From Clostridia bacterium (GTDB lineage Bacteria > Bacillota > Clostridia > TANB77 > CAG-465): 64,000 bases of DNA. The DNA is taken from NCBI GenBank assembly GCA_036660635.1, contig JAVXAF010000001.1:17857-81856 (forward strand). Direction: 5' to 3'. The notes beneath the pieces are model-generated. The model saw nothing but the letters and a program-made list of their open reading frames with translations, did not search any database and had not been told where the DNA came from. Below are positions 2,063 to 28,386 of this stretch, piece after piece. A program made the translations under genes and the position numbers. How positions within the stretch are numbered: the first letter of the stretch is position 1; the number at the start of each line of letters is the position of its first letter.

Positions 2063-2092
2063 ATATTTTCTCCTTACATATGTTATACAAAC

Positions 2093-4925: not shown

Positions 4926-4956
4926 ATATTTTCTCCTTACATATGTTATACAAACT

Positions 4957-13539: not shown

Positions 13540-14871
13540 TTAAGGAATTTGTATAAATGATCCCATATATACATTGATAAGTGGTACCATTACAGTAATC
13601 ATAAAGAATATAAGTGCAATACCAACAAAAATATATGTTATATCTGGAAGCCACTTAACAAATTTAGCAATAGACTCATCTATTTCCATTACAATATATT
13701 CATTTACTTTTTCCATCATCTCGGCAAGATCTGTTTTCATTCCTATATCAATCATTTCTGTAACCATTGGTTTAAATAGCTTTTTTTCTTCAAATGGTAT
13801 CATCCAAGATCCACCTGATAAAGCGTTAACTTTACCTGCTTCAATTACAGATAAGAAATAGTAATTTTTAGTTACATTTTTTGAAATATCTAAACTTTCT
13901 TGTATTCTCATACCATTTTTTAAATTAAGCAACATAGCTTGAAAAAATTTACTAATTGTTATATTAATATTTAATGGTCCTATAACCGGTATTTTCATAA
14001 TAAGTCTATCAAAATTATATTTTCCTTTTGGTGTATTAATATATGCAAAAAATCCTAAAACTAATAAACCTATTGCTGCTACAACAAAATACCAATTTGC
14101 TACAAACCACTTTGCAATATTTAGACCAATCATAGTTGCAGCTGGTATTTTTTCATTAGAGTCAAACATATCATATACTGATTGTAAAAGTGGAACACCA
14201 ATAATAAGCGCTGCAAACATTGCGATTATAATTCCAAAAAATTGTAACAGTCTTGGAATTACTGCAGATGTAATTTTTTTTCTTAATTTTGTAGATGATT
14301 CTACATAATCTCTTGCGTAAAGTAATGCTGTATCTAGAGTTCCAGACTCTTCACCAACTTTTACGAAGTTTATATACATAGTTGGAAATACTCTGGGATA
14401 ATTTTCCATTACAGCGTACATTCTCTCACCTGATTGAACACCAATTAGTATATCCTCAATTACATTTTTAAAATATTTGTTTTCAGTACCATCATGCACA
14501 GCTTCTAAGGCTTGAATATTATTAAATTTAGCTTTTTTCAATATATATATATTATTTGAAAATATTATTAAATCTTTTGCGCTTACATAATTTATAAATG
14601 TAATCCCATTTTTTGCTAAATCTTTAAATTTCAGATTTTTAAAATTAATTTTACCACTTTCTTTAACTCTTTGCTTTTTGTCTTCTTTTATTAATTTTTC
14701 ATAATCTAGTCTTTTATATTTCTTTTTATTATCTTTCATTTTTTCTACAAAAATTGGTTGAGTGCCATCTTTTTTTAAACTATCAATGGCTAGTGACTTA
14801 TTTAATGCCATGATTCTTCCTCTACCTAATTTTCCATCTTGATATATAACTCTATATTTGTAACTTGGCAA
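13540..14871 (-). CDS. pilC: Type IV pilus assembly platform protein PilC (GspF family, two GspF repeats)
   Basis: 443-aa polytopic protein with the architecture and location typical of PilC/GspF. Confidence 0.85.
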   Translation of the reverse strand: MPSYKYRVIYQDGKLGRGRIMALNKSLAIDSLKKDGTQPIFVEKMKDNKKKYKRLDYEKLIKEDKKQRVKESGKINFKNLKFKDLAKNGITFINYVSAKDLIIFSNNIYILKKAKFNNIQALEAVHDGTENKYFKNVIEDILIGVQSGERMYAVMENYPRVFPTMYINFVKVGEESGTLDTALLYARDYVESSTKLRKKITSAVIPRLLQFFGIIIAMFAALIIGVPLLQSVYDMFDSNEKIPAATMIGLNIAKWFVANWYFVVAAIGLLVLGFFAYINTPKGKYNFDRLIMKIPVIGPLNINITISKFFQAMLLNLKNGMRIQESLDISKNVTKNYYFLSVIEAGKVNALSGGSWMIPFEEKKLFKPMVTEMIDIGMKTDLAEMMEKVNEYIVMEIDESIAKFVKWLPDITYIFVGIALIFFMITVMVPLINVYMGSFIQIP

Positions 14872-14891: not shown

Positions 14892-15992
14892 CTAGTCTGA
14901 TAAAGATCCACCCTCGCCTATTATAATACTTTTAATTATTTGAAATCTATCCGGATCTACATTAGCTTTTACTGTAGCTATATCTATAAGTCCTTTTAAA
15001 TATAAATCTGCAAATGAGTTTTCAAAGCTTAAACATCCCTTTTCTCTTTGACTATGAATAGTATCTTCTATATCTGAGACGTTAAACTTTTCTTGTCTCA
15101 TTTGAGCAGCTATTGTATTATTTACTAACATAACTTCTGGAACCATTAAAAGTTCACCTTTTGTGCTAACAACTAATTTTTGTGAAACTACCATTTTTAA
15201 CACTGAAGACACTGCATTTTTTATAGTTTGTTGATCTGAAGGAGAATACATACTTATTATTCTTTCTACTGTCTCACCACAAGAACGTGTATGTAATGTT
15301 CCAATAACAAGGCCACCTGACTCTGCAAGATCAATAGCAACATCCATAGTTTCTTTGTCTCTTATCTCTCCTAAAACAGCTATATCTGCGTCTTCTCTTA
15401 GTAGATTTATTAATCCATCATGGAAACTTACAACATCAGACTCAGCACCAATTTCTTTTTGTATAATTATTGATTTATCTGATACATGCTCATACTCAAC
15501 TGGATCTTCCAAAGTTACTATTTTTTTATTACTTTCTCTGTTTACCTCTTGAACAAATCCATTCATAGTTGTTGATTTACCAGAGTTTACTTTACCAGTA
15601 ACAAGTATAAGGCCATTTGAAATACTTTTCATTCTTTCAATTATTTGTCTAAGTCCCATACTATTTACATCAATATCTCCATTAGGTATTACCCTCATTG
15701 AAAATGTAGGTAGACCCTTAGTAAGTGATATGTTTATTCTAAATCTATGCTCAGAATATGTATATGAAAAGTCAATTTGTTTTTTTATTTTAAAGTTAGA
15801 ACTTAAGGCTGGAAACCTCTTATAGAAAAAGTTTAATATTTCTTCTAGTGAGATATCTGAGAGTGCAAGTCTAGTCTGATCAAAAAACAACTTTTTTTTC
15901 ACTCTAAAAACTGGAGTTTGTCCTGGTGCCAAATGAATATCTGTAGCTCCTAAACTTATTCCTTTATCAAGTATTGAATGTAATAGTTCCAT
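14892..15992 (-). CDS. pilT: Type IV pilus retraction ATPase PilT
   Basis: LVTGKVNSGKSTTM Walker A, GEIRD, and a ~366-aa PilT-size secretion ATPase. Confidence 0.85.
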   Translation of the reverse strand: MELLHSILDKGISLGATDIHLAPGQTPVFRVKKKLFFDQTRLALSDISLEEILNFFYKRFPALSSNFKIKKQIDFSYTYSEHRFRINISLTKGLPTFSMRVIPNGDIDVNSMGLRQIIERMKSISNGLILVTGKVNSGKSTTMNGFVQEVNRESNKKIVTLEDPVEYEHVSDKSIIIQKEIGAESDVVSFHDGLINLLREDADIAVLGEIRDKETMDVAIDLAESGGLVIGTLHTRSCGETVERIISMYSPSDQQTIKNAVSSVLKMVVSQKLVVSTKGELLMVPEVMLVNNTIAAQMRQEKFNVSDIEDTIHSQREKGCLSFENSFADLYLKGLIDIATVKANVDPDRFQIIKSIIIGEGGSLSD

Positions 15993-16033: not shown

Positions 16034-17671
16034 TTATATTGTTATTTTTCTTTTTAATTCTGGTATTGTAGTAACACCACTTAATACTTTTTTTACACCA
16101 TCTACTACAAGTGGTTTGTATTCTGTATTTTTAATTGCATATTCTTTTAGCTCCAAATTAGGTTTTCCATCTGCTATCATATCTTTCATATAGTCATCTA
16201 TACAAAGTATCTCAAACACGCCTATTCTCTCGTAATATCCTATATCATTGCAATATTTACATCCAACTGGTTCAAATGGATGAGAATTTTTAATGTCAAA
16301 CTCAGTTCCTGTAAGCTTAGTTACTTTATCAATATACTTTAGTTCTTCTTCTGTAAAATCATGAGGTTTTTTACATTTGTCACATAATCTTCTTACAAGC
16401 CTTTGTGATATTGTAGTAACAACACTAGACGATACATCGTAGCTTGATACTCCCATTTTTCTCATTCTTGTTATTGCTTCAATTGCATCAATTGTATGTA
16501 GAGTAGATAATACTAAGTGACCAGTTTGACCTGCTTCTACAGCTGTTTTTGCTGTTTCTTCGTCTCTTATCTCACCTACTAGTATAATATCTGGATCTTG
16601 TCTTAGAACTGTTCTAAGAGCTGATGCAAATGTTATATTAGGGCCTATTTCAACTTGGTTAATACCTGGTATTCTACGTTCAACTGGATTCTCAATTGAA
16701 ATAATATTTATTGATGGCTTGTCTAAGTACTCAAGCACGCTATACAAAGTTGTAGTTTTACCCTCACCTGTTGGAGCACATACTATAATCATACTGTTTC
16801 TTTTATCAAATGCTCTTTCAACAAGCTCGGAATCTTTTTCAAAACCAAGTTCAAATAAATCTCTTGCTTCTGCATTTTTTCTTAAAAGTCTTAATACAAA
16901 TTTTTCTCCAAAAACATTTTTTTGAGTAGATACACGAATACTAAAATTATCATATGTATCAATACTTCCATCTTGATCATATGCAATTTCTTGATGCATA
17001 TTTGATATTGATTTTAACCTTCCTGTTATGATTTCTTGTCTATTTTTAGGAAGTTCAGTTATTGGTATTAGTTCTCCATCAATTCTATATCTTATCCTTA
17101 TTTTTGTATCCATTGGTTCTACATGTATATCTGATGCTCTTTTATCAATTGCGGTCATTATTATATTATCAATAAGCTTAGAAATATCTTTTTCTTCTTT
17201 ATTTACAAATCCTGATTCAACAGTTTTAATACTAGAAATTTGTTTCATTATAGAAGTATATAGAGTTGCATATATTTCCATATTAAATCCTTGATTCATA
17301 AGTAAAAGTTCTATTTCTTTTACTTTACTTGCATTTTGTGGATCTGCAAATGCAACTTTTAGCGTATTTCCATCTAGAGCAAAAGGGAAAGCTTTATAGT
17401 TTATTATTATATCTCTTGGAAGATATTGAACTGGATTTATTTCAACATCATCTTGTAAAAGTGTTGAATTAATTTGTATTTTAAATGAAAGTACTTCAAG
17501 TAACTGCTCTTTATCACACATATCTAATATATCAACAATTTCACCAAACTTCAAATCTTTGTGCTCTTTTTGATATTCAAGAACTCTATCTACTTGACTT
17601 TCACTTAAAAGTCCCCTTTTTATAAACTCAATGCCAATTGGTGTTTTTCTAGATTTAACATTTTCAAACAT
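16034..17671 (-). CDS. pilB: Type IV pilus assembly ATPase PilB (GspE family)
   Basis: VCAPTGEGKTTTLYS, VGEIRDEETA, and the CxxC...CxxC zinc motif of GspE-type ATPases. Confidence 0.9.
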   Translation of the reverse strand: MFENVKSRKTPIGIEFIKRGLLSESQVDRVLEYQKEHKDLKFGEIVDILDMCDKEQLLEVLSFKIQINSTLLQDDVEINPVQYLPRDIIINYKAFPFALDGNTLKVAFADPQNASKVKEIELLLMNQGFNMEIYATLYTSIMKQISSIKTVESGFVNKEEKDISKLIDNIIMTAIDKRASDIHVEPMDTKIRIRYRIDGELIPITELPKNRQEIITGRLKSISNMHQEIAYDQDGSIDTYDNFSIRVSTQKNVFGEKFVLRLLRKNAEARDLFELGFEKDSELVERAFDKRNSMIIVCAPTGEGKTTTLYSVLEYLDKPSINIISIENPVERRIPGINQVEIGPNITFASALRTVLRQDPDIILVGEIRDEETAKTAVEAGQTGHLVLSTLHTIDAIEAITRMRKMGVSSYDVSSSVVTTISQRLVRRLCDKCKKPHDFTEEELKYIDKVTKLTGTEFDIKNSHPFEPVGCKYCNDIGYYERIGVFEILCIDDYMKDMIADGKPNLELKEYAIKNTEYKPLVVDGVKKVLSGVTTIPELKRKITI

Positions 17672-17683: not shown

Positions 17684-17905
17684 TTACCTATTTTCATTTA
17701 TTTTAATTATTGTTTTTTCATAAAATCCATTTATATCTTCTACTGATTTACTATATTTTTCTACTATGTTTTTTTCATATTTATTAGTTAGTATGTCAAA
17801 ATGTTCTTGCTCAGAAAAAGTTGACATTGCATATATGGAAAAAGTAACAGAAGTTAAAATAACCAATAATACTCCTGAGCCTTTTAATCTATTTTTTTTA
17901 CTCAT
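17684..17905 (-). CDS. Small pilin-like protein (73 aa; KGSG|VLLVI N-terminus)
   Basis: Short ORF overlapping the upstream gene by 8 nt. Basic residues, then Gly, then a hydrophobic helix. Confidence 0.4.
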   Translation of the reverse strand: MSKKNRLKGSGVLLVILTSVTFSIYAMSTFSEQEHFDILTNKYEKNIVEKYSKSVEDINGFYEKTIIKINENR

Positions 17906-18377
17906 TTAATTCATCTCCTAGTGCAAAGAAAAACTCACAACTTTTTTCTTCCTTATATTTTAAAAACTTGATTTTTGTTGCAAAACTCTTAGATGCACTA
18001 TCTATTTTTGCTAAAGTTTCAGCATTAATTGAAGTAAGATTAGAAGGTAAAATATCAAATTTACACTCTTCTACTGACTTTACTAATACGCCACCATTTT
18101 TAAAAATAGTTTTTTTTGTACTATCATATGTATATATATCATTATTTGAAAAAGTGATTTTATCTGCTGTTGTCTCTACCCACTGACTTGACTTTGCACT
18201 ACTTAATAGATTTACTTGTAGTTTATCTCTTTGCTCATTAATGTATATATTTCCCTTCTCAGTCATAATTTTATAATTCATATTAGCACTCATTGCAACT
18301 GCAAAAGTAGTAAACAAAAAGAATAACACAACATACAAAACTATTGAAACCATTGTAAGACCAGAAGCTTTTTTCAT
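17898..18377 (-). CDS. Minor pilin-like protein (159 aa; KKASG|LTMVS)
   Basis: Class-III-like N-terminus without Glu5, located in the pilus operon. Confidence 0.5.
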   Translation of the reverse strand: MKKASGLTMVSIVLYVVLFFLFTTFAVAMSANMNYKIMTEKGNIYINEQRDKLQVNLLSSAKSSQWVETTADKITFSNNDIYTYDSTKKTIFKNGGVLVKSVEECKFDILPSNLTSINAETLAKIDSASKSFATKIKFLKYKEEKSCEFFFALGDELNE

Positions 18378-18380
18378 ATG

Positions 18381-19178
18381 TTACACCTTCCCTTTTAAAG
18401 TATCTAAACTAAATTCTTTTGGTTTACCATCTACCATATACTCTACCTTAACATTTACTTTTTTTACAATATCTTCTTTTGACAAATCCTCATCACAATA
18501 TTTTGAAACACTAGTGCTTACCATATAAGTTATATTATCCATTTTTTCTGATGTGGTAGACGAATCCAGTAAATCATACTTTGTTGCAAGTGACACTTCA
18601 ATATTTTTTGTAGCTATCGCAATAGCATTGCTCTTAGCAATGTTTATTATAGACTTCTTTTGATAATTTAAACTCATAATATATGAAGATACTAAAAAAA
18701 GTGTAAACATTATCATAGCTACAACAAGCTCAGATAAAAATACTCCGCTCTTTTTACTTAGTTTTTTTTTATTTAGTTCTACTTTTTCTTCTTCACTCAT
18801 TTTAGATTTCATAATTAAAGATCCTGCTATAGTAAATATAACAGCATATACAAGGCATACAACAAGCAAAGTAAAAGTATAACCAAATATAAAATATAGC
18901 AAAACAAATACTATACCATTAGAAAGCTCTAAAAGTATATATCTAGGACTTATTTGAGAACCACAATACTTGCATTTTCCTCCTCTTATAACAAAACTTA
19001 AAATTGGAATTAAATCGAAAAATCCAAGTCTATGTTTACAACTTGTACAATATGATCTCGTAGCCACTATGTCCTGATGTCTTGGAAGTCTATAGGTAGC
19101 AAGTGAGAAGAAACTTCCAAATAAAGTACCAATTACAAATATACAAAATACAACAAATATATTTAAAAATACTAACAC
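18381..19178 (-). CDS. Fusion ORF: PilD N-terminal domain (TM1, 4-Cys loop, TM2-3; no A24 peptidase catalytic domain) fused in frame to a canonical pilin domain (KKSG|VFLSE)
   Basis: The first ~120 aa match the prepilin peptidase N-terminus (CTSCKHRL...GGKCKYCGSQISPRYILLEL). Then come MKSKMSEEEK...KKSGVFLSELVVAMIMFTLF and a soluble pilin-like C-terminus. No other ORF of 60 aa or more in this interval could supply the peptidase domain. Confidence 0.6.
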   Translation of the reverse strand: MLVFLNIFVVFCIFVIGTLFGSFFSLATYRLPRHQDIVATRSYCTSCKHRLGFFDLIPILSFVIRGGKCKYCGSQISPRYILLELSNGIVFVLLYFIFGYTFTLLVVCLVYAVIFTIAGSLIMKSKMSEEEKVELNKKKLSKKSGVFLSELVVAMIMFTLFLVSSYIMSLNYQKKSIINIAKSNAIAIATKNIEVSLATKYDLLDSSTTSEKMDNITYMVSTSVSKYCDEDLSKEDIVKKVNVKVEYMVDGKPKEFSLDTLKGKV

Positions 19179-19189
19179 TAGCTCACCTC

Positions 19190-19260
19190 CATGAATAATA
19201 TTTACATTTTACAATATACTTAAGTATACTCTAAAATATATATATAGTGGTTAGACCATA
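19190..19260 (-). terminator. Possible attenuator/terminator hairpin downstream of the major pilin gene
   Basis: gaccatatacacagcagagtatatatggcc stem, flanked by A/T-rich sequence. Confidence 0.3.
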
Positions 19261-19340
19261 TACACAGCAGAGTATATATGGCCTTTCCATTTAATCGTAT
19301 TTTAAAATTTTAATTTATTTAATTACTACACTCTAGTAGT

Positions 19341-19742
19341 TTATTTTGTGATTGTAAGTGAACCATCTACTACTGTATATGTGGCTACTTTTCCTTTCAT
19401 TTCAGGTAATCCAATCTCTGACCATTCTACTCTTAATACTACTATACCACTTGCAATCAAGTCCGCAGGTAATGCATCTGTTTTTTTATCTGATATATAA
19501 ACATGAGTCTTACCCTCTAGTAGTGACTTATAGTCTGCAGCCTCTGCTTGTTTAGATGCTAAATATAATGATAATGCAGACTTAACTTCAGCCTTATCGT
19601 TAGCTGTTACTGCATCTCCTGCTTTTGCAATTGGATTGTTTCCATTATTAAATGATAGAATAACTGCTGCTGCTAAAATGATTATAACGATTATTGTTAT
19701 AACTAATACGATTAAAGAAATACCTTTTTTGTTTGCTTTCAT
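19341..19742 (-). CDS. Major pilin candidate (133 aa), N-terminus MKANKKG|ISLIVLVITIIVIIILAAAV without Glu5
   Basis: Sits at the pilA position in the locus. Shares its N-terminal 40 aa with the two 340-aa paralogs at the left end of the window. Confidence 0.65.
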   Translation of the reverse strand: MKANKKGISLIVLVITIIVIIILAAAVILSFNNGNNPIAKAGDAVTANDKAEVKSALSLYLASKQAEAADYKSLLEGKTHVYISDKKTDALPADLIASGIVVLRVEWSEIGLPEMKGKVATYTVVDGSLTITK

Positions 19743-19818: not shown

Positions 19819-20325
19819 TTATTTGCCTATTTTAAGGCAATCTAAATCAGATGTCCACCAAGATGGAGATCCTTCCACTCTAAGATATTGACCATCTTGA
19901 ATATACCATGTGATACCTTCATATTCTGGTAAAGTTACCTTGAGTATTTTTGAAAAATTCTTTGGTAATGCTTCATAGCATACTTTTGAATTTTCTTCTT
20001 TTTTCTTTTCTTTATTTGCTAGAGGAGTAATTTCTTCTTTGCTATTTTCCTCTTTTGTTATTTTTGTTTCTTTTTTGTTTTCATTTGTATTTTCTTTTTT
20101 AGGTGTAACACCTAGTATTATTTCATCTTTGTTGTATATTCCAAAAGTTTCAGAATATGTATTTCCTACATAATATGAAAGCTTTGCTTGAATATCTATT
20201 ACATTTTTTAAGAACTCTGCTTTTGTATGTTCATCTTTACTTCCTACTTTTGTCATTATTAATAGTGTAGCAAGAATAACTAGTATAATAACAAGAATTG
20301 TTATTATTATAGAGTTTTTTTTCAT
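19819..20325 (-). CDS. Pilus-associated membrane-anchored protein with a C-terminal Cys pair (168 aa)
   Basis: N-terminal hydrophobic anchor without Gly. A C...C pair near the C-terminus resembles a pilin D-region. Confidence 0.4.
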   Translation of the reverse strand: MKKNSIIITILVIILVILATLLIMTKVGSKDEHTKAEFLKNVIDIQAKLSYYVGNTYSETFGIYNKDEIILGVTPKKENTNENKKETKITKEENSKEEITPLANKEKKKEENSKVCYEALPKNFSKILKVTLPEYEGITWYIQDGQYLRVEGSPSWWTSDLDCLKIGK

Positions 20326-20337
20326 ATGTCTTCCCCC

Positions 20338-20745
20338 TTATTTATTTGTTGAAGGTGGATTTGGTGTTCCACCATTACTATTTGTTGTTTTATCAGTTGT
20401 TGAAGTAGAGCCTCCGCCGTTTGTGTTGTTATTAGTATTACCACTATTATCATTTCCAGTTTGACTAGAAGCAAACGGATCTGAGTTTCCAGCTTTATAT
20501 TGATTAGTTTTTTTGAAGTTTGTTATATCTTCACTAGTTATTATATATTCATGAATAAGAGCATCAGTTGATATATCTTTTGTACTTACAAATTGGTAAT
20601 CTGATTTTTTTATATTTTCATAGTCTTCTACGTTAGTTTTTGCTATATGTGCTTTTTGAGGCAACATTAACATAAAAGCTATTATTGCAACTGAAAAAAG
20701 TACTAAAACACTCATACTAAACGTTATTGCAAATGTTTTTTTCAT
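20338..20745 (-). CDS. Pilus-assembly-associated membrane protein with a low-complexity N/G/S/T-rich tail (135 aa)
   Basis: TM helix followed by a low-complexity tail; located in the operon. Confidence 0.4.
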   Translation of the reverse strand: MKKTFAITFSMSVLVLFSVAIIAFMLMLPQKAHIAKTNVEDYENIKKSDYQFVSTKDISTDALIHEYIITSEDITNFKKTNQYKAGNSDPFASSQTGNDNSGNTNNNTNGGGSTSTTDKTTNSNGGTPNPPSTNK

Positions 20746-20772: not shown

Positions 20773-21507
20773 TTATTTGTTTATTGTTAGATTTTTAACA
20801 TTAAAGGTAGCTTTTATTGTTGTTCCTTCAACATATTCCATAACAATATTATCAAGTTTAAATCTTAATTCTTTATCATTTTCTACTTCAAATACAAAAC
20901 TTGAAACATCTATATAGCTTCCTGATACTTGTATTTTAAATATTGTATCTTCTATATTGTTACCACTTCCAATATTTGGAAACTCTAGACTTGGTAGCTT
21001 TGGTGCTGTCTCTTTTTGAGATGTCTCTTGAGTTGTAGTAGTTGTAGTAGTTGTAGTATCAGAAGTGGCAGCTTTAGTTTCATCTTTTTTATCTATAACA
21101 GTATTTTCTTTTCCACCTGGCTCAACAACTATTATTGATAAATTGTTTACCCTAGCGTAGTTTCCAAGTCTTATCCACATATATTCAATGCTATATTTTT
21201 CTTTTGTAGTTGCATCTTTTATTATATCTATAGTTTCATTGCTTATTGCTTCATATTTTTGTTTTTCTTTTGAGTAATTTAATTTTTCATCTTCTAAACT
21301 TTTTTTTGTAGTTTTATATGAATCTTCTGCCTTTATTAATGTTTCTTCTGCTTGGCTTACTATACTATGATTATCTATTAAAGATTTAATCGAAGAAAAT
21401 TTAATTATTCCTAAATTTACATCTACAAGGCAAAAAAGTATAAATAAACCTAAAGCTACAATACTTATTATTATGAATATTATCAACTTTTTTTTATTAT
21501 TTAACAT
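20773..21507 (-). CDS. pilO: PilO-like pilus assembly protein (TM + coiled coil)
   Basis: Topology and its position after pilMN. Confidence 0.55.
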   Translation of the reverse strand: MLNNKKKLIIFIIISIVALGLFILFCLVDVNLGIIKFSSIKSLIDNHSIVSQAEETLIKAEDSYKTTKKSLEDEKLNYSKEKQKYEAISNETIDIIKDATTKEKYSIEYMWIRLGNYARVNNLSIIVVEPGGKENTVIDKKDETKAATSDTTTTTTTTTQETSQKETAPKLPSLEFPNIGSGNNIEDTIFKIQVSGSYIDVSSFVFEVENDKELRFKLDNIVMEYVEGTTIKATFNVKNLTINK

Positions 21508-23141
21508 TATGGCAATTCACCGCCAATCTCCACAATAGTAGTAGTTGCATTTTTAACATTATTTATTTTAACATTATTTAATACGCCATCTATTTTTAAT
21601 TGTGCTACAAAATATCCAAGATCAGCATAACTTGCAGATTGTGCTACTATTTTAATATGTTTGTTATCATCTGAGCTTATAGTCTTTAGTTGAATATTTT
21701 TTGGTATTACTTTTATAATATTTTGTAAAAATGATGCCACATTATATGTTGTATATTTTTTTATTTGATTATTTTCAATTTGTGAAGCTATTTTTGATAC
21801 TTCGTCATTTATTTCTTTATATTTTTTTGTATTAGAGTTTATATAATTAAAATCGTTTTCTATTTCTTTAGTTTTTAATTCTGTATCTTCTTTTTCACGA
21901 TTTAAGTCTTTTTTCATTGATTCCACTTTTGAAGTATATAGTCCAGTAAATCCTAGATACGTAATTAAAATCAAAGAAATTACAATTGCAGATGATCCAA
22001 ATAAATTAACTACTTTTTCAGATGTAAAATCCGTTGTAATGCTTTTATTTTTTAATCTACTCTCTTTTTCGTCTCCTCTTTGTTCTGTATTTCCACTTTT
22101 TTGTCTGCTTTCAAATAAGCTACTTAAAGTTTTTTTAATTTTTGAAGTTGAAGTAAGAAACTCAAGATTTCTATTTTCGTGTGTCAATCCCTCATAAGCT
22201 AGTGTAATAGCAGCGGTAGTTTCTAATATTTCCGCAATATTTCTAACATTACTTGTATCAGTTACAAACTTTGGCTTTAGTATTTCGCATTTTATTTCTA
22301 AATATTCTCGAAATAAAATATCAATATTTGTAAATACAACTCCAGTTCCAGTAAGTATTACTTTGGAAACGTCTTTTCTATGCTTTGTTACTTGCATAGA
22401 AACATATTTTAAAACCTCTTGTAAAATGGGTTCTGTTATTCCTTCTAGTGCTTTATCATTTATAGATTCACCCTCGGTAAATACATTCATTTGTTTACAA
22501 GCTTCGTACGCTTTTTGATAACTTCCAAGTCTTACCGTAAAATCAGCTAAAATAGATTTCATTCCAACATTATATGATCTAAACTCAGCAAGTTTGCCAT
22601 CTATTACTACAGTTATAGTTAGATCGTCATCCAAATTTACAAGTATATAATTTGTTTCGTCTAAGCTAACTAAGTTTTCTAAAAGAAGAGGAGATGGGTA
22701 AATATTTGATATTTTTACGCCATTTATTGTACTATATTCCTCTATTGTAGATTTTTCAGCTATATTAATTACAGCATCTTTTTTATTTTCACTATTTTTT
22801 AAATCCGATACTCTATATACATATGAATATTTATCTGGTGATTTTGCATTTTTTTCGCACCACGCTTCAAACTCCATTTTCATTACATCAGCTGCGTAGT
22901 TTTTTGTTTGAGCCTGATCATACATTTGGGCAGTTATATATTTATCATCTTGAGAGTTAAGTACAATAGCACAGTCTTTGGAATTGGTATGTTCTATTAT
23001 TTCAGAAATTAAAGCTTTTTTATTTGTACTTGCAAATCTAACGCCATATTGTTCAAGCTTTATATTAGCGTTATTATCGCTAGATACTTTAGCATATTTT
23101 ACAATATTGTCATTTAGATATATTCCTAAACAATTTGCCAT
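21507..23141 (-). CDS. pilMN: PilM-PilN fusion (actin-like ATPase domain + TM + coiled-coil periplasmic domain)
   Basis: 544 aa. The N-terminal ~370 aa are PilM-like, with a TM helix near residue 385 and a PilN-like tail. The same fusion is known in clostridial type IV pilus loci. Confidence 0.7.
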   Translation of the reverse strand: MANCLGIYLNDNIVKYAKVSSDNNANIKLEQYGVRFASTNKKALISEIIEHTNSKDCAIVLNSQDDKYITAQMYDQAQTKNYAADVMKMEFEAWCEKNAKSPDKYSYVYRVSDLKNSENKKDAVINIAEKSTIEEYSTINGVKISNIYPSPLLLENLVSLDETNYILVNLDDDLTITVVIDGKLAEFRSYNVGMKSILADFTVRLGSYQKAYEACKQMNVFTEGESINDKALEGITEPILQEVLKYVSMQVTKHRKDVSKVILTGTGVVFTNIDILFREYLEIKCEILKPKFVTDTSNVRNIAEILETTAAITLAYEGLTHENRNLEFLTSTSKIKKTLSSLFESRQKSGNTEQRGDEKESRLKNKSITTDFTSEKVVNLFGSSAIVISLILITYLGFTGLYTSKVESMKKDLNREKEDTELKTKEIENDFNYINSNTKKYKEINDEVSKIASQIENNQIKKYTTYNVASFLQNIIKVIPKNIQLKTISSDDNKHIKIVAQSASYADLGYFVAQLKIDGVLNNVKINNVKNATTTIVEIGGELP

Positions 23142-23453: not shown

Positions 23454-24056
23454 TTACTTTTTTACAGTTATACTAAGTTTTTCTGCTTTTGCACCAAGTT
23501 GATCTACTAATATTTGTTGTATTTGTGCAATTTGTTCTTTTTTTAATTCTTCACGTGAGCTTACAACAACATTAATATTATAATTATCTGTAGGTATTAT
23601 CACTATATCTTTGATTCCTTTTGACTTAATAACATTTTCTACCATATTAATTAAATTTTTTTGTTTAATTAGTTCATTTAGCTTTACTTGATATTCGGTT
23701 ATTTTTTCTTGAGATGTTTTTTCATTTTTAATTATATTTGAATAATTTTCACTTAACTCTGAGAACATATTATCTCTATCATATTTAAATACTGCTATTG
23801 AATTTTGTTCTATAGTACTATTCACACCTTTTGTACTATTTTTATCATCAGAAGTGTGTTTTTTCTGATTTTCTTTTTCCTCTTCCTCGTATATGCTGAC
23901 GTCTTGGTATGTAAAACTGTCTTTTCCATTAACATACATTGTCTGTCCTAGATTTTTTTCTCTTTCAGGATTATATTTGTAATTTATATATCCTGCAACT
24001 ACTGCCATTAAACTAATCGATAAAATAGCAATCTGTCCTCTTTTTATTACTGTCAT
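23454..24056 (-). CDS. spoIIIAH: Stage III sporulation protein AH
   Basis: Last gene of the spoIIIA operon. Signal anchor followed by a YscJ/FliF-like domain. Confidence 0.75.
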   Translation of the reverse strand: MTVIKRGQIAILSISLMAVVAGYINYKYNPEREKNLGQTMYVNGKDSFTYQDVSIYEEEEKENQKKHTSDDKNSTKGVNSTIEQNSIAVFKYDRDNMFSELSENYSNIIKNEKTSQEKITEYQVKLNELIKQKNLINMVENVIKSKGIKDIVIIPTDNYNINVVVSSREELKKEQIAQIQQILVDQLGAKAEKLSITVKK

Positions 24057-24064
24057 TTTTTCAC

Positions 24065-24637
24065 CTACCCTTGTTTTTCAAAAACTTGTACTTTATATAT
24101 AGGAACACTTGTAATTGACGATACAGCTGAAGCAATCTTTGATCTGGTATCAACTGAGTTTGCGCCTTTGGCTACGATTATAACACCTTCTATTTTAGGC
24201 ATTTCAATTGTTTCAATTATAGCTTTTTTACCGCTTCCTTCTTCATTGTATGCTACTGTTTTTTCTGTTGTTTTTTCACTATTTTTCTCTAGCTCTTTAG
24301 TATTATATATAGGAGTTTTTTTACTATCTTGGCTATATGTAATCAATGCCGAAACTTCACTTATGCCAGATATTTGAGAAAGTATATTTGATAACTTATT
24401 TTCTAAGTTAGAATTTATATTAGCTGTATTTGTATCAACATTGCCCTTACTATTACTATTTATATTCTTATCCTTGCTTGTACTATTACTAGTCTCACCT
24501 TTTTTTGTGGTATCAGTCTTGAAAATATAGTTTCCTGCTATAAGTAAAATAACGATAAGTACTAAAAGCAGCACTAAGTTTTGAGTTCTTTTTTCTTTAT
24601 TTTTGGTCATATCTTTTATCACTGTTAAATAATTCAT
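24065..24637 (-). CDS. spoIIIAG: Stage III sporulation protein AG
   Basis: Operon position, and a conserved C-terminal ring-forming domain (VIIVAKGANSVDTRSKIASAVSS). Confidence 0.8.
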   Translation of the reverse strand: MNYLTVIKDMTKNKEKRTQNLVLLLVLIVILLIAGNYIFKTDTTKKGETSNSTSKDKNINSNSKGNVDTNTANINSNLENKLSNILSQISGISEVSALITYSQDSKKTPIYNTKELEKNSEKTTEKTVAYNEEGSGKKAIIETIEMPKIEGVIIVAKGANSVDTRSKIASAVSSITSVPIYKVQVFEKQG

Positions 24638-25164
24638 TTTTTTGCCTCCTCTGTCACGGATATTTTTGAGTATTTTATTCCATATTCTTTATTTATATAA
24701 TTTATAACACTATTTACATTTATTATATTTGTATTTTTTTTGTTTATATTTTCTATATTTATATCAATGTTTTCCACATTATAGTTTTCATCAAGTGCAA
24801 TATCAATATTATTTACATTTACTTTTTGTTCTTCTAACTTTGTTTTTATATCTTCTTTCATACTAAGTATCATATTTTGTTCTATTGTTTCTTTAGTTGC
24901 CTCTTTATATTTTGTGCTTTCATTTTGGTTTATATGGTTTTCTTCAATAGATATGTTTGCTATTACTTCTTTTATCCCATCTTCAATGCTATTTTCTTTA
25001 AGTAGCTTTATAACTGGCGATACAATAGTAAGGATTGTAACTATTCCAATTAAAGAATAAATGTATTTTTTTAAATTTGTTTTAGGTATTATAAGCTGTA
25101 CAAAAGTTATAAATATTCCAATACAGAGCATAGAGCTTATCCATATTTTAAAAACTTCTACCAT
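24634..25164 (-). CDS. spoIIIAF: Stage III sporulation protein AF
   Basis: Operon position; two N-terminal TM helices. Confidence 0.7.
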   Translation of the reverse strand: MVEVFKIWISSMLCIGIFITFVQLIIPKTNLKKYIYSLIGIVTILTIVSPVIKLLKENSIEDGIKEVIANISIEENHINQNESTKYKEATKETIEQNMILSMKEDIKTKLEEQKVNVNNIDIALDENYNVENIDINIENINKKNTNIINVNSVINYINKEYGIKYSKISVTEEAKK

Positions 25165-25174
25165 ATTTCCTCCT

Positions 25175-26350
25175 TTATTTTACGACTGCATTTGTTAAAT
25201 TTAAGATTATTCCAGTTGATATTATAAAAATAATATCAACTCCTATTAAGATTCCAAATATTGTTTTATATGTGTTTAAAAAGCCATTAATAAACTTATT
25301 AATATTATCATCTTTAATTATAGGTTCAATTACAATGCTAAGTAAAAAATATATTATTACAACACTTCCTATTTTAATTATAGGTAGTATGCTAACTAAA
25401 ATTATACCAATTATTCCAATTGTCCCTCCAACATTGCTGACCACTTTGCTAGCCCCTACTACCGCTTCAAAGCTATCAGAGAAGAACTTTCCTACTACTG
25501 GTACAAAGTTAGACACAGCTGCTTGTGTTGTCTTTACAGCAAGTGAATCTACTGAACTTGTAAGAGATGTTTCAAGCGATAAAACCCCTAAAAAAATCGT
25601 CAAGCTAACTCCTATTATCCACATTGCAGCTAAGTTAAAAGCTTTTGCAGCTTTACTTAGCCTTATATTTTCTGATACTGAACATATAACGTTAATTGCA
25701 ACCGATATGCTAAGAAATGGTATTACTACATAGTTAATCAAAAGTCCAATAAAACTAGCTAAAAACAATAGCATTGGTTGTATTATGCCTATGCTTGTTA
25801 TTGCTCCTGTTGCAACTAACATTCCCATCATAAAAGGTGATATTACTTGCATTAATGTTGTAAGTGACAATACTACATTTTTAAATACATTTACCACCTC
25901 TACAAAACTAGTTATTGTTATAGTGGAGAGTACTAAAAAGCATGCTAAATTGGCTATTTTTGTAATATCGCTATTTTTTTCTATTTCAAAGCTTGAGATA
26001 AGAGCCATTATAACAAAAATCAAAAATATTGTTATTGCACCTCTTGCTGCTACTACCACTTCCTTAAAAAATAAAGCAATAAACTTCGAAAATATATTGC
26101 CACAGTCTAATTTGTTTTGACTAAATAATCCTTTAGAAATATCTACTATATCTATATCTTTTATTCCTTGCTTTTTTACATACTCATCTATTTTACTTAT
26201 ATATTCATTTATTTCATAGTCTTGTCCTACTTTTTTTGTTGTATTTTCTAAAAGTGCGTTTGAATCGTTATTTACGTCCTCATTTGCTTTAACTGTTTGC
26301 ATACAAAGCAAAATAATTATTAACAAAAAAGATATGATTTTTTTCTTCAT
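25175..26350 (-). CDS. spoIIIAE: Stage III sporulation protein AE
   Basis: 391-aa polytopic membrane protein at the expected operon position. Confidence 0.8.
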   Translation of the reverse strand: MKKKIISFLLIIILLCMQTVKANEDVNNDSNALLENTTKKVGQDYEINEYISKIDEYVKKQGIKDIDIVDISKGLFSQNKLDCGNIFSKFIALFFKEVVVAARGAITIFLIFVIMALISSFEIEKNSDITKIANLACFLVLSTITITSFVEVVNVFKNVVLSLTTLMQVISPFMMGMLVATGAITSIGIIQPMLLFLASFIGLLINYVVIPFLSISVAINVICSVSENIRLSKAAKAFNLAAMWIIGVSLTIFLGVLSLETSLTSSVDSLAVKTTQAAVSNFVPVVGKFFSDSFEAVVGASKVVSNVGGTIGIIGIILVSILPIIKIGSVVIIYFLLSIVIEPIIKDDNINKFINGFLNTYKTIFGILIGVDIIFIISTGIILNLTNAVVK

Positions 26351-26353
26351 ATT

Positions 26354-26746
26354 TTATACCAGTCCCGTCAATACATTTACAAGTGCACTAATAAGAGGAA
26401 TAGAAAGACTTACTATTAAAACTTTACCAGTCATTTCTAGTTTTGTTGCTATTGCACTTTGCCCTGAGTCTATGCAGATATTTTTCCCAAATTCAACTAT
26501 ATAAGCTATAGCAGTTACTTTTAAAATTATATTTAAAAACTCTTTATTCATTCCGGATTTTTCAACTAGCTCATTTAACATGTCTATAATAGGTAGCATT
26601 TTTGAAAGAGCAAATATCATTATTCCAAGACAAGCAAAAATAGTAAGAATAAGTGCCATTTCTTTTTTTTGTTCATTTAAAATAATTATTAATACAACTG
26701 ATATTATAGCAAATCCTACTACTTTTAATATTTCCATTTTTTTCAC
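26354..26746 (-). CDS. spoIIIAD: Stage III sporulation protein AD
   Basis: 130-aa, 4-TM protein at the expected operon position. Confidence 0.8.
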   Translation of the reverse strand: MKKMEILKVVGFAIISVVLIIILNEQKKEMALILTIFACLGIMIFALSKMLPIIDMLNELVEKSGMNKEFLNIILKVTAIAYIVEFGKNICIDSGQSAIATKLEMTGKVLIVSLSIPLISALVNVLTGLV

Positions 26747-26941
26747 CTACAACTTAAATACTGTTCTAACAGTTTCAAATAAATCACTTATCTTAGTTAT
26801 TACAAGCATCAGTACAATAATTAAACCTGTAAGAGTCGTCATCATAGCTTGGTCTTCCCTACCTGCTTTTGTAAGTACTTGTGATAAAACTGCAACTAAA
26901 ATTCCAATTCCAGCTATTTTAAATAACAAATCAATATCCAT
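26747..26941 (-). CDS. spoIIIAC: Stage III sporulation protein AC
   Basis: 64-aa, 2-TM protein. Confidence 0.8.
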   Translation of the reverse strand: MDIDLLFKIAGIGILVAVLSQVLTKAGREDQAMMTTLTGLIIVLMLVITKISDLFETVRTVFKL

Positions 26942-26953
26942 GTTTTTCCTCCA

Positions 26954-27493
26954 TTATATAAATACAACAACTATCATAAGACCAGTTATCATTCCAACCG
27001 TCTTATATACTTTAGAGCTTTTAAGTTTGATCTCATTTGCTTCGGCTATTTGATTTTCTATTATAGTTATAGTGTTTTCTATAATATTTATTTGCCCATC
27101 CACATCACTTCTGCCTAGGTTTTTAAGTGTAGCTGAAAATATATTTTTGTCATAATTGCTAAGGCTGTCGATACTATAAACATTATTTACAATGCTTGTT
27201 TCTATAAAATTTAATGAGTTTTCATATTTTAACATATCAATTACAATATTAGATATTTTTAAATTAAGTTCACTGCTTAATTTATGTCTGGCTGACTCAT
27301 AAGCATTGGGTAAGATTGCTCTCATATACAAAATTTCATTTTTAACAAGTTTTAAAAAACTTACCATATCCCTTAAAATATATTCTCTATTTTTAAGTTT
27401 TTCTGCCTTCATATTTCCAATATATGTAGTTATAGCAATTATTCCAACTGATAGTACTATTTTATATATTAACACTAAACCGCCTCCAAACAT
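26954..27493 (-). CDS. spoIIIAB: Stage III sporulation protein AB
   Basis: Operon position; GspF-like fold protein. Confidence 0.75.
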   Translation of the reverse strand: MFGGGLVLIYKIVLSVGIIAITTYIGNMKAEKLKNREYILRDMVSFLKLVKNEILYMRAILPNAYESARHKLSSELNLKISNIVIDMLKYENSLNFIETSIVNNVYSIDSLSNYDKNIFSATLKNLGRSDVDGQINIIENTITIIENQIAEANEIKLKSSKVYKTVGMITGLMIVVVFI

Positions 27494-28386
27494 TTATTAG
27501 TTATTCTATGAATTTTTTCAATTGTTCCGGGACCATTTTTATTTGATAATATTACAACAACGTCAAAAAGACCTTCACTAAATAATTCTTTTATACCATC
27601 TTTTTTAATTACATCTTCTAAATTTCTTCCATGCATTGTAAATATAAGTCCTACCCCACTAAGGCTTGCATATTTTATAGCTTCAAGATCATTTTTAGAT
27701 CCTATCTCATCAGTTGCAATAACGTTAATTCCCATACTTCTAACTAACATTTCCATACCAATATATTTAGGACAATTCGAGATTACATCTGTTCTTACCC
27801 CAACATCTAAATTTATCCTTCCATTATTAACACAAGCAAGTTCTCCTCTTTCGTCTACTAAACCAATATTCATGCCATCGAATTCAAGTCTTTTAACACC
27901 AGAGCTTATTTGCCTTATTGTGTCTCTTAGCATAGTGGTTTTTCCACATCCCGGAGGAGATACAATAAGAGTATTTAAAACCTTTCCTTCATTTATTATA
28001 TTATTAACTAAAATATCAGCACATCCAATAAGCTGTCTTGCCACTCTTATATTCATACTATTTATATTTTTAATATTTTTTACTTTCTCATCTTGTAAAA
28101 TAACTTCTCCGCAAATACCAATTCTATGTCCTCCGTTTATAACAACAAATCCATTATTTATATCATTTTGTATGGCATATATAGAATTTCTAGAAACTTT
28201 TACTAAAATCTCAAGTAAATCTTTAAGTTCTATAATATACTCTAAAAAAATCTCAATATTAGCAGTAAGCACAACTGTACGTCTTCCTACTCTTAATCTA
28301 ATTTCTGTTATATAGTCTGTTGTACCAATATTATTTACCTGATATGCAAGCTTTTCTGGTAAAACTTTTAAAATTTCATTTAACAT
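27475..28386 (-). CDS. spoIIIAA: Stage III sporulation protein AA (secretion-ATPase-like)
   Basis: Walker A SPPGCGKTTMLRD; first gene of the operon. Confidence 0.85.
   Translation of the reverse strand: MLNEILKVLPEKLAYQVNNIGTTDYITEIRLRVGRRTVVLTANIEIFLEYIIELKDLLEILVKVSRNSIYAIQNDINNGFVVINGGHRIGICGEVILQDEKVKNIKNINSMNIRVARQLIGCADILVNNIINEGKVLNTLIVSPPGCGKTTMLRDTIRQISSGVKRLEFDGMNIGLVDERGELACVNNGRINLDVGVRTDVISNCPKYIGMEMLVRSMGINVIATDEIGSKNDLEAIKYASLSGVGLIFTMHGRNLEDVIKKDGIKELFSEGLFDVVVILSNKNGPGTIEKIHRITNKCLEAV

What the first reader, a model, noticed from the sequence alone, without database searches (positions are those of the whole stretch)
18381..19178. In-frame fusion of a PilD N-terminal fragment (no A24 catalytic domain) to a canonical E5 pilin domain
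Residues 1-120 reproduce the prepilin peptidase N-terminus: TM1, then the tetracysteine loop CTSC...CKYC with RYILLEL, then two further TM helices. The sequence then switches abruptly to MKSKMSEEEK..KKSG|VFLSELVVAMIMF and a soluble pilin-like domain. The aspartyl-protease (A24) domain carrying the two catalytic Asp residues is absent. No other ORF of 60 aa or more in this interval could encode it. Three explanations are possible. It could be a decayed pilD whose remnant now forms the leader of a minor pilin. It could be a genuine methyltransferase-domain/pilin fusion. Or the pilin may be translated from the internal Met-rich site.
Basis: partly seen in the sequence, partly recalled or inferred. 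Interest (0 to 1): 0.7.

Follow-up and report, generated by a model that had tools for sequence, protein, structure and literature searches.

The report
Peptidase-less PilD methylase module fused to pilin
In a clade of uncultured gut Clostridia, the type IV pilus enzyme PilD has lost its protease half, and its surviving zinc-binding "methylase" half is made as one protein with the minor pilin encoded next to it; the arrangement is conserved and under selection, and it naturally separates pilin N-methylation from leader cleavage.

Summary
ORF 18381-19178 (minus strand, 265 aa) has three parts: a PilD N-terminal module (Pfam A24_N_bact, E=4.5e-28; four invariant Cys; three TM helices), a K/E-rich linker, and a complete prepilin site (G145|V146...E150) leading a GspI-like minor pilin. 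It has no A24 protease domain.

It is neither an artefact nor a decaying remnant.
- At least 120 protein clusters, and 42 GTDB species-representative genomes, share the full architecture.
- The N-module evolves about as slowly as PilB and PilC.

Synteny shows how it arose. More distant relatives have a canonical pilD followed by this pilin as a separate gene. A sister clade has a PilD-like gene with a degenerate protease half (no GxGD motif). The fusion clade, which has a single origin, deleted that half right after the first catalytic Asp. One lineage later split the fusion again.

An internal start for the pilin is not supported.

Best explanation: the pilin is released by a prepilin peptidase encoded elsewhere, and the N-module persists as a stand-alone methylase or docking factor. 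That peptidase was not found in the window or within +-10 kb of the fusion in 47 related loci. Whole genomes could not be searched.

Novelty: new variant of a known kind. Interest: about 0.6.

The parts
18381..19178 (-). Fusion ORF, 265 aa plus stop: PilD N-module, linker and GspI-like prepilin. NCBI annotates it 'prepilin peptidase', which is a misnomer.
19186..19190 (-). Shine-Dalgarno GGAGG, 7 nt upstream of the GTG start at 19178
   Evidence: read from the sequence; homologues start at the same aligned position
18813..19178 (-). PilD N-terminal 'methylase' module, residues 1-122: TM1, cytoplasmic zinc-ribbon loop, TM2, TM3. It ends where the first catalytic Asp of PilD would be (GSLIM here; GIDKE in PilD).
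   Evidence: Pfam A24_N_bact residues 15-97, E=4.5e-28; helices 2-30, 78-98 and 102-125 in the model; junction comparison
18963..19049 (-). Tetracysteine motif C44-x2-C47 ... C69-x2-C72, with G67-K68 next to the third Cys
   Evidence: All four Cys present in all 120 homologues and invariant in the alignments, where K68 is >=90% conserved. Role in Zn binding and methylation taken from PMC3584216.
18744..18812 (-). Cytoplasmic K/E-rich linker, residues 123-145 (MKSKMSEEEKVELNKKKLSKKSG). Its length varies among homologues, and it ends in the prepilin leader terminus K-x-G.
   Evidence: (G-1 lies at positions 134-178 in homologues)
18729..18746 (-). Prepilin peptidase recognition site G145|V146-F-L-S-E150. 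G-1 and E5 are invariant.
18384..18743 (-). Predicted mature GspI-like minor pilin, residues 146-265: alpha-1 helix followed by a 4-stranded beta-sheet
   Evidence: AF2 model; Foldseek matches to XcpV and EpsI; weak TIGR01707 gspI hit, E=0.1
19341..19742 (-). g133: probable major pilin (MKANKKG|ISLIV, no E5). Tandemly amplified in some relatives.
17898..18377 (-). g159: pilin-like protein (MKKASG|LTMVS), directly downstream of the fusion
17684..17905 (-). g73: small pilin-like protein (…LKGSG|VLLVIL)
16034..17671 (-). PilB-type assembly ATPase (T2SSE plus MshEN)
14892..15992 (-). PilT-type retraction ATPase (T2SSE)
13540..14871 (-). PilC platform protein (T2SSF)
21507..23141 (-). PilM-PilN-like fusion protein (PilN domain at the C-terminus)
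20773..21507 (-). PilO-position membrane protein. The name comes from gene order only; no family hit.
19819..20745 (-). Two single-TM cluster proteins, g135 and g168, of unknown role. Both are conserved in the cluster.

Best explanation
The gene is a conserved 'Rosetta-stone' fusion made by deleting the protease half of an in-cluster pilD.

The surviving N-terminal module has three TM helices and a cytoplasmic four-Cys zinc ribbon. In PilD this part is the domain required for S-adenosylmethionine-dependent N-methylation of pilins. Here it is translated as a 145-residue membrane-embedded 'leader' of the GspI-like minor pilin that used to be the next gene.

The predicted topology is N-out, zinc loop in the cytoplasm, TM2 and TM3, linker in the cytoplasm, pilin helix running in to out, and pilin head outside. 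This places the invariant G145|V146 site at the cytoplasmic face, as in any prepilin.

Inferred mechanism:
1. A prepilin peptidase encoded elsewhere in the genome cuts at G145|V146.
2. This frees a 120-residue minor pilin, the only pilin of the cluster with an acidic +5 residue, to prime or enter the pilus.
3. It leaves the N-module in the membrane as a stand-alone methylase or pilin-docking factor. Its first and nearest substrate is the N-terminus just created.

Shown: the architecture, its conservation, its single evolutionary origin by deletion, the constraint on both halves, and the lack of an internal start.

Inferred: cleavage in trans, methylase activity of the orphan module, and action in cis.
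For: Architecture.

Conservation: 448 hits, of which the best 120 are all full-length with PF06750 only. All 120 keep the four Cys and G-x4-E, with a mature part of 120-131 aa. Invariant residues include C44, C47, C69, C72, K143, G145 and E150.

Distribution: 42 GTDB species genomes carry the fusion.

Origin: in 38 sister species a PilD-like gene occupies the same slot of a syntenic cluster, and the fused pilin's homologue is a separate gene directly after it. The nearest canonical PilD (Pfam A24_N_bact plus Peptidase_A24) has the same arrangement, followed by an E5 pilin. The breakpoint lies right after the first catalytic Asp position, and early-branching fusions still read IGVD-IM. On a PilB tree the fusion clade forms one clade.

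Constraint: N-module divergence relative to PilB is 1.27 in the fusion clade against 1.06 in the sister clade. Relative to PilC it is 0.87 against 0.94.

Module autonomy: one lineage re-split the gene, with an ATGA stop/start overlap and its own SD. The same split product is seen in 4 independent SRA assemblies and one GTDB genome.

Cleavage is still expected: every pilin class in fusion-clade clusters keeps a basic leader ending in Gly. Only the fused pilin has E or D at +5 (42 of 43).

Function of the module: Zn bound by the four Cys is needed for methylation but not for cleavage, and a Gly plus a basic residue next to the third Cys contribute to methylation (PMC3584216; PMC10191384). The fusion has G67-K68-C69.
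Against: No prepilin peptidase was found to do the cutting. There is none in the 64-kb window and none within +-10 kb of 47 fusion loci. Whole genomes could not be searched.

Methyltransferase activity has never been shown for an A24_N module on its own. The SAM-binding site of PilD is not mapped, so the domain may need the protease half for catalysis.

The canonical N_methyl/TIGR02532 prepilin profiles do not hit the site. The +1 residue is Val, not Phe.

Met123 and Met127 are >=90% conserved without an obvious reason.
Confidence: 0.55

Rival explanations
1. Uncleaved anchor. The fusion is never processed. The GspI-like domain stays tethered to the membrane by the three-TM N-module and works as a fixed base, nucleation site or stopper of the pilus. 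The zinc ribbon contacts the cytoplasmic machinery (PilM, PilB or PilC).
For: No A24 catalytic domain in the window or near any of 47 fusion loci. The sister clade's in-cluster PilD-like protein already lacks the GxGD motif and is not recognised by Pfam Peptidase_A24, so the cluster may have lived without its own protease for a long time.
Against: G-1 and the acidic +5 residue are invariant across the family, which is the signature of a cleaved, filament-incorporated pilin. The re-split lineage makes the pilin with an ordinary short leader, MNNNKKLSKNSG|V. All other pilins of the cluster keep leader-Gly sites.
Confidence: 0.15
2. The fusion is cleaved, but the N-module is not a methylase. It is kept for a non-catalytic job, such as acting as a chaperone or membrane-insertion pro-domain for the priming pilin, or recruiting it to the assembly platform.
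For: The role of pilin methylation is unknown, and methylation is dispensable for assembly in Pseudomonas (PMC3584216; PMC10191384). The module's conservation shows function but not which function.
Against: The residues linked to methylation in PilD are exactly those most conserved: the four Cys, and Gly plus Lys beside the third Cys. The module also persists as a separate protein in the re-split lineage, which argues against a role as a pure pro-domain.
Confidence: 0.2
3. Internal initiation. The pilin is translated on its own from Met123 or Met127, and the long ORF is incidental or a second product.
For: Met123 and Met127 are >=90% conserved in an otherwise variable linker. M123-G145 has the length and charge of a normal, longish prepilin leader, as in sister-clade pilins.
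Against: Only 6 of 36 loci have a 4-nt SD-like motif upstream of Met123. Gly119 codon usage (GGA 12, GGT 17, GGC 4) is like control glycines. L025, L028, L031 and L040 have no Met in the linker. The re-split lineage needed a new ATG with its own AGAGG SD.
Confidence: 0.05
4. Decaying pseudogene remnant or assembly artefact. This would be a broken pilD that happens to read through into the next gene.
For: The protease half has clearly been lost, and NCBI still calls the product a prepilin peptidase.
Against: The same architecture is found at 100% coverage in at least 120 protein clusters, from many independent assemblies and 42 species genomes. The reading frame is kept despite linker length changes. 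The N-module evolves as slowly as core machine proteins. The exact window protein is found on 4 contigs from 3 samples.
Confidence: 0.02

Closest known systems
Bifunctional prepilin peptidase/N-methyltransferase PilD (GspO, XcpA; MEROPS A24A)
   Same: The N-terminal 122 residues are a full A24_N_bact/IPR010627 module. They have TM1, a CxxC...CxxC zinc ribbon, G-K beside the third Cys, the DLIP and RY..LE motifs, and TM2 and TM3. The gene sits in the pilD slot of a T4P cluster.
   Different: The whole Peptidase_A24 domain (five TM helices and both catalytic Asp) is missing. The chain continues into a prepilin instead. It cannot be a peptidase, so the database name is wrong.
Peptidase-only A24 enzymes (TadV/CpaA, FppA, archaeal FlaK and PibD)
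   Same: They show that the two PilD modules can exist apart.
   Different: They are the mirror image: protease without methylase. A methylase module without a protease, as here, is not mentioned in the T4F reviews I read (PMC10191384, PMC4471445) and did not turn up in my literature searches.
GspI / PilV-type core minor (pseudo)pilins (EpsI, XcpV)
   Same: Small size (120 aa mature), E5, and a long alpha-1 helix plus a small beta-sheet. These are the best structural matches. The gene sits among other minor-pilin-like genes just before pilB.
   Different: The sequence match to TIGR01707 is far below its cut-off (E=0.1). The +1 residue is Val. The leader is a 145-residue three-TM enzyme module, not 6-25 residues.
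Modular type IV pilins (for example Streptococcus sanguinis PilB, PMC8179133)
   Same: A pilin module is covalently joined to a functional module.
   Different: In modular pilins the extra module is grafted onto the C-terminal, extracellular end and travels with the pilus. Here it lies N-terminal to the cleavage site, in the membrane and cytoplasm, and should be left behind.
Sister-clade in-cluster PilD-like proteins (L048-L085)
   Same: Same cluster, same slot, and 45-65% identical N-module. They are followed by the homologous acidic-5 pilin.
   Different: They keep a five-TM C-terminal half that has the first catalytic Asp (34 of 38) but no GxGD. Pfam Peptidase_A24 does not recognise it. The pilin is a separate gene.

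Membership tests
Prepilin peptidase (PilD/GspO, MEROPS A24A) | N-terminal methylase module (A24_N_bact/IPR010627) with four Cys | tested here: met
   PF06750 E=4.5e-28, residues 15-97; four Cys invariant
Prepilin peptidase (PilD/GspO, MEROPS A24A) | Peptidase_A24 domain (PF01478/IPR000045) | tested here: not met
   No PF01478 hit at E<=1. Profiles of canonical PilDs align only to positions 2 to about 170, with nothing beyond the N-module and the hydrophobic pilin helix.
Prepilin peptidase (PilD/GspO, MEROPS A24A) | Two catalytic Asp residues (GxD... and GxGD) | tested here: not met
   The first-Asp position reads GSLIM in the window (GIDKE in relatives). There is no GxGD in any of the 120 homologues.
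Type IV pilin / pseudopilin (class III signal peptide) | Leader ending in Gly, then a hydrophobic helix of about 20 residues with Glu at +5 | tested here: met
   KKSG|VFLSELVVAMIMFTLFLV. G145 and E150 are invariant. Acidic +5 in 42 of 43 species loci.
Type IV pilin / pseudopilin (class III signal peptide) | Short hydrophilic leader (about 5-30 residues) at the very N-terminus | tested here: not met
   The leader is 145 residues with three TM helices. Only its last ~23 residues resemble a normal leader.
Type IV pilin / pseudopilin (class III signal peptide) | Match to N_methyl (PF07963) / TIGR02532 profiles | tested here: not met
   Neither was reported at E<=1 in Pfam or NCBIfam.
Type IV pilin / pseudopilin (class III signal peptide) | Lollipop fold: long alpha-1 helix packed on an antiparallel beta-sheet | tested here: met
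   AF2 model: helix 145-198 plus 4 strands, pLDDT about 90
Type IV pilin / pseudopilin (class III signal peptide) | Cleavage by a prepilin peptidase and incorporation into a filament | not testable with these tools
   Needs proteomics or biochemistry. No peptidase gene was located.
GspI/PilV-type core minor pilin | Sequence match to TIGR01707 (gspI) | tested here: inconclusive
   E=0.1, 13.1 bits against a cut-off of 44.35, residues 145-238
GspI/PilV-type core minor pilin | Structural similarity to EpsI/XcpV | tested here: met
   Top Foldseek PDB hits are 9a1f_R, 2ret, 3cfi, 5bw0 and 5vtm, with TMt 0.53-0.69 and prob 0.9-1.0, but E-values of only 0.04-0.8.
PilD-type pilin N-methyltransferase (activity) | Zn-dependent, SAM-dependent methylation of the pilin N-terminus | not testable with these tools
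   Only the residues implicated in PilD are conserved: four Cys, and G-K next to the third Cys.

The most novel reading that the evidence does not exclude
The orphan module is an autonomous pilin N-methyltransferase that acts in cis on the one pilin it is fused to. That pilin is the only acidic-5 subunit of the system and is probably the priming subunit. On this reading, what selection has preserved for the whole history of this clade is methylation of a single minor pilin, fully uncoupled from leader cleavage. This would be the first natural genetic separation of the two PilD activities. It would point to the function of N-methylation, which reviews still call a mystery (PMC10191384). A more extreme version is that these bacteria have no A24 peptidase at all and the fusion is processed, or used, by a new route.
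Probability: 0.3. Interest if true: 0.8.

Novelty: new variant of a known kind. Interest (0 to 1): 0.6.

Why it matters
PilD is described as a bifunctional enzyme. Its protease half is understood. The purpose of its methylase half, and of pilin N-methylation, has been open since the 1970s (PMC10191384).

This clade of gut Clostridia has discarded the protease half of its in-cluster PilD. It has kept the methylase half under purifying selection across at least 42 species, welded to one particular minor pilin, and in one lineage as a free-standing protein again. From this:

- The module has a selectable function of its own.
- The data nominate a specific substrate or partner: the GspI-like, acidic-5 pilin.
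- They provide small natural constructs (145-aa module, 120-aa pilin) for biochemical tests of methylation without cleavage.

It also corrects a systematic misannotation. These proteins are labelled 'prepilin peptidase' in NCBI and JGI records, which would lead genome surveys to credit these pilus clusters with a peptidase they do not encode.

Tried and rejected
1. Searching the large protein database with the pilin half alone returned nothing, not even the parent protein. This is a word-index failure and says nothing about absence. Unfused homologues were later found by synteny.

2. I first called the sister-clade proteins 'true full-length PilDs' on the strength of a home-made profile. That profile had been built partly from those same proteins. 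Pfam and a canonical-only profile showed that their C-half is degenerate, so I corrected this.

3. I cannot call the sister C-half dead either. D126, E128 and E206 are near-invariant.

4. Weak profile hits to 447-480-aa ORFs in L048 and L059 disappeared with the canonical profile. They were spurious hydrophobic matches.

5. Promoter and terminator scans around the gene were no better than shuffles.

6. Foldseek hits to class-I SAM methyltransferases (about 60 aligned columns, TMq 0.16-0.18) are tempting. The aligned region is not reported and the scores are low, so I did not use them.

8. The PDB sequence search found only spurious zinc-finger matches, so no relative has been solved.

9. The TANB77 pilin paper (PMC11680825) concerns a different, Tad-type cluster and does not mention a peptidase. 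I could not verify that this organism belongs to TANB77.

10. I ran no further search on the A24 half. The 120-row output would be filled by sister-clade proteins and could not be tied to particular genomes.

11. dN/dS was not attempted, because synonymous sites are saturated at 50-70% protein identity. I used rates relative to PilB and PilC instead.
Full report
THE OBSERVATION

A GGAGG Shine-Dalgarno lies 7 nt upstream. No other ORF of 40 aa or more overlaps the interval.

Pfam assigns residues 15-97 to A24_N_bact (PF06750, E=4.5e-28, 97.6 bits against a cut-off of 23). It finds no Peptidase_A24 at any threshold up to E=1. NCBIfam gives only a faint GspI pseudopilin signal for residues 145-238 (TIGR01707, E=0.1).

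An AlphaFold2 model built on 95 homologues (mean pLDDT 81.8) has these elements:
- TM1, residues 2-30
- a poorly ordered loop carrying the four Cys
- TM2, residues 78-98, and TM3, residues 102-125
- a short linker helix
- a 54-residue helix, residues 145-198
- four antiparallel strands, residues 207-263, at pLDDT about 90

The best PDB matches are GspI-type minor pseudopilins: XcpV in 9a1f, EpsI in 2ret and 3cfi, and XcpV in 5bw0 and 5vtm. Target-normalised TM is 0.53-0.69, but E-values are only 0.04-0.8.

So the C-terminal half is a small pilin and not a diverged protease.

NOT AN ARTEFACT AND NOT A DECAYING REMNANT

The exact protein is on four contigs from three samples, including NCBI MAG GCA_036657795.1, contig JAVXFS010000004.1, which is the source of the window.

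A search of 5.8 billion proteins gave 448 hits. The best 120 are all 255-299 aa, 49-69% identical, mostly at 100% coverage, and carry PF06750 as their only Pfam domain, with one exception. Where a source names them, it is 'prepilin peptidase', which they cannot be.

All 120 keep CxxC...CxxC and a G-x4-E site. The predicted mature pilin is 120-131 aa in every one. The position of the cleavage Gly ranges from 134 to 178, because the K/E-rich linker changes length without ever breaking the frame. Invariant residues include C44, C47, C69, C72, K143, G145 and E150. K68 is >=90% conserved.

A scan of one genome per GTDB species found the full-length fusion in 42 species (L006-L047). All are uncultured low-GC (25-31%) gut Clostridia, among them 'Clostridium sp.' CAG:465, CAG:921 and CAG:1219.

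ORIGIN

The same scan returned 38 species (L048-L085) that match only the N-module. I compared gene order in all loci using the window's own proteins as queries.

Both groups have the same cluster:
PilM/N fusion - PilO-position protein - g135 - (g168) - one or more copies of pilin g133 - [this gene] - g159 - (g73) - PilB - PilT - PilC.

In the 38 species the slot holds a seven-TM PilD-like protein of about 270 aa. In at least 13 of them, the ORF that starts within a few bases of its stop codon is a recognisable homologue of the fused pilin. It has an ordinary short leader and an acidic +5 residue, for example MKLKSEKG|FTGID.

The nearest PilD that Pfam recognises as complete (A24_N_bact plus Peptidase_A24, motifs GIDKENYIIPD and GYGDIKY) lies in the same arrangement in a more distant MAG (GCA_002308995.1). 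It is likewise followed by an overlapping gene for an E5 pilin...SESG|YSLIE.

At the junction, PilD-like proteins read ...IAGIDKEK... and the fusions read ...IGSLIMKSKM.... The fusions that branch nearest the sister clade read ...IGVDIMKSKM..., and they also still use D rather than E at +5.

The event was therefore a deletion. It ran from just after the first catalytic Asp of pilD to about the start codon of the next gene. On a PilB tree the fusion-bearing and PilD-like-bearing loci fall into two clean clades (43 and 34 tips), so it happened once.

A CORRECTION MADE ALONG THE WAY

The sister-clade proteins are not canonical peptidases. Pfam sees only A24_N_bact in the six I tested, even at E<=0.1.

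I aligned them to a profile of 36 canonical PilDs. The first catalytic Asp column is D in 34 of 38. The second is D in only 13 of 38, and never in a GxGD context. Their C-half is less conserved than their N-half (44% against 66% mean pairwise identity), but it keeps near-invariant D126, E128 and E206.

So the protease half was at least highly unorthodox, and possibly dead, before it was deleted. I cannot tell which.

The series is: canonical PilD plus separate pilin; then degenerate protease half; then protease half deleted and the pilin fused.

There is a fourth state. In L043 the frame shifts in an A-run, so that the N-module ends ...KRLKK-stop and its TGA overlaps an ATG (ATGA). That ATG is preceded by AGAGG and starts a separate pilin, MNNNKKLSKNSG|VFISE. 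The identical 183-aa product, with a 136-aa gene overlapping it by 4 nt, occurs in four independent SRA assemblies. This is therefore a real secondary fission, nested inside the fusion clade.

IS THE ORPHAN MODULE STILL DOING SOMETHING?

I used PilB and PilC from the same loci as clocks.
- N-module divergence relative to PilB: 1.27 in the fusion clade, 1.06 in the sister clade.
- N-module divergence relative to PilC: 0.87 in the fusion clade, 0.94 in the sister clade.

The module is as constrained as the core machine proteins, and about as constrained as when it is part of a PilD-like protein.

The most conserved positions are the ones the literature ties to methylation. In Pseudomonas PilD, the four Cys bind zinc, which is required for SAM-dependent N-methylation but not for cleavage. 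A Gly and a basic residue next to the third Cys also contribute to methylation (PMC3584216). Reviews call this region the methylase domain, IPR010627 (PMC10191384). The fusion has G67-K68-C69.

IS THE PILIN MADE SEPARATELY FROM AN INTERNAL START?

Met123 and Met127 are >=90% conserved, which is odd in a variable linker. Met123 may be the relic of the ancestral pilin start codon. Several results argue against initiation there:
- Only 6 of 36 loci have even a 4-nt SD-like motif at the right distance.
- The codon for the invariant Gly119, which would supply the SD, is used as at control glycines (GGA 12, GGT 17, GGC 4).
- L025, L028, L031 and L040 have no Met between TM3 and the cleavage site.
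- The re-split lineage uses a different, new ATG with its own SD.

I rate this reading at about 5%.

IS THE PILIN CLEAVED, AND BY WHAT?

The predicted topology puts G145|V146 at the cytoplasmic face, as in any prepilin. The argument follows from the model and the positive-inside rule. TM1 runs out to in. The zinc loop and the K/E-rich linker are cytoplasmic. The pilin helix runs in to out.

G-1 is invariant. The +5 residue is E or D in 42 of 43 species loci. It is the only pilin class of the cluster with an acidic +5: g133 has V (61 of 66 copies), and g159 has S (39 of 43). All the other pilin classes also keep basic leaders ending in Gly, in both clades. These are signatures of continued processing by a prepilin peptidase.

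I found no such peptidase. Profiles built from PilDs, run at maximum sensitivity over every ORF of 50 aa or more in six frames, hit nothing but the N-module. This covered the 64-kb window and +-10 kb around 47 fusion loci. The one other multi-TM candidate in the window is SpoVAC.

This is the main gap in the analysis.

MOST LIKELY MECHANISM (confidence about 0.55)

1. The protein is inserted as a four-TM polyprotein.
2. A peptidase encoded elsewhere cuts at G145|V146.
3. The 120-residue GspI-like pilin goes on to prime or join the pilus.
4. The 145-residue module stays in the membrane as a methylase or docking factor, with the freshly made N-terminus beside it.

The fusion joins an enzyme module to what is probably its preferred substrate. 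From my own recollection of Strom and Lory's work, not checked here, E5 is required for methylation in Pseudomonas. This pilin is the only E5/D5 subunit of the system.

The rivals are an uncleaved anchor (0.15), a cleaved fusion whose module has a non-catalytic role (0.2), internal initiation (0.05), and pseudogene or artefact (0.02).

COMPARISON WITH WHAT IS KNOWN

Peptidase-only A24 enzymes (TadV, FppA, FlaK) are textbook cases. The converse, a methylase module without a protease, is not mentioned in the reviews I read, and it did not turn up in four literature searches.

Modular pilins are known, but their extra modules sit at the extracellular C-terminus (PMC8179133, listed). A 145-residue, three-TM enzyme module standing in for the leader peptide is, as far as I can find, undescribed.

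No relative of the N-module has a solved structure.

The protein fails the membership test for prepilin peptidases: it has no A24 domain and no catalytic Asp. It passes most of the tests for a type IV minor pilin, apart from the leader length and the N_methyl profiles.

I rate it a new variant of a known kind, with interest about 0.6. It is a clear natural experiment bearing on an old open question, the purpose of pilin N-methylation. Set against that, the organisms are uncultured and the key biochemical steps are inferred.

Noticed in passing
window 19179-19340 (-): The 162-nt gap between the probable major pilin gene g133 and the fusion folds into two strong hairpins, one with a perfect 13-bp stem (GGCCAUAUAUACU...). 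MFE is -42.2 kcal/mol, z=-4.58, with 0 of 200 shuffles as stable. It may be an attenuator or an mRNA-stability element separating major-pilin expression from minor-pilin expression. The simple terminator scan did not call it.
   Followed up: partly
window 1052-2146 (-) and 3900-5009 (-): Two paralogous proteins of about 336 aa with g133-like prepilin N-termini (MKNKRG|ISLIVLVITIIV). Their first ~80 and last ~40 residues are identical or nearly so, and their middles are only 40-60% identical. They have no Pfam hits. They look like large modular pilins or adhesin variants, encoded about 10 kb from the pilus cluster.
   Followed up: partly
window 23454-28386 (-), and L001, L003, L006-L029, L040, L042, L043: The pilus cluster lies directly downstream of the complete spoIIIAA-AH sporulation operon, in the window and in many fusion-clade genomes. 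This is not seen in the early-branching fusion loci or in the sister clade.
   Followed up: partly
L007 (7637-9800), L009 (6665-9900): The g133 pilin gene is tandemly amplified in some relatives: four copies in L007 and six in L009.
   Followed up: no
L043 10330-10520; L086-L089: One lineage inside the fusion clade has re-split the gene into an N-module ORF and a pilin ORF, with an ATGA stop/start overlap and a new SD. The identical product is seen in four independent SRA assemblies.
   Followed up: yes
L048-L085, about 10000-10800 in each: The sister-clade in-cluster PilD-like proteins have an A24-like C-terminal half that lacks GxGD and is invisible to Pfam PF01478, yet it keeps near-invariant D126, E128 and E206. 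These are possibly pseudo-peptidases or non-canonical ones, and are probably misannotated as prepilin peptidases as well.
   Followed up: partly
window 18798-18812 (-) (Met123 to Met127): Two Met codons are >=90% conserved across the family in an otherwise variable linker, with no upstream SD. They may be relics of the ancestral pilin start. This remains unexplained.
   Followed up: partly
window 6538-9036 (+): An 832-aa protein with four N-terminal TM helices and TraG/VirD4-type coupling-protein domains (T4SS-DNA_transf, TraG-D_C). It sits next to secA and may be a remnant of a conjugative element.
   Followed up: no
window 21507-23141 (-): PilM and PilN appear to be fused into one 544-aa protein. 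Only the C-terminal PilN domain is detected by Pfam. The fusion is conserved in both clades.
   Followed up: no
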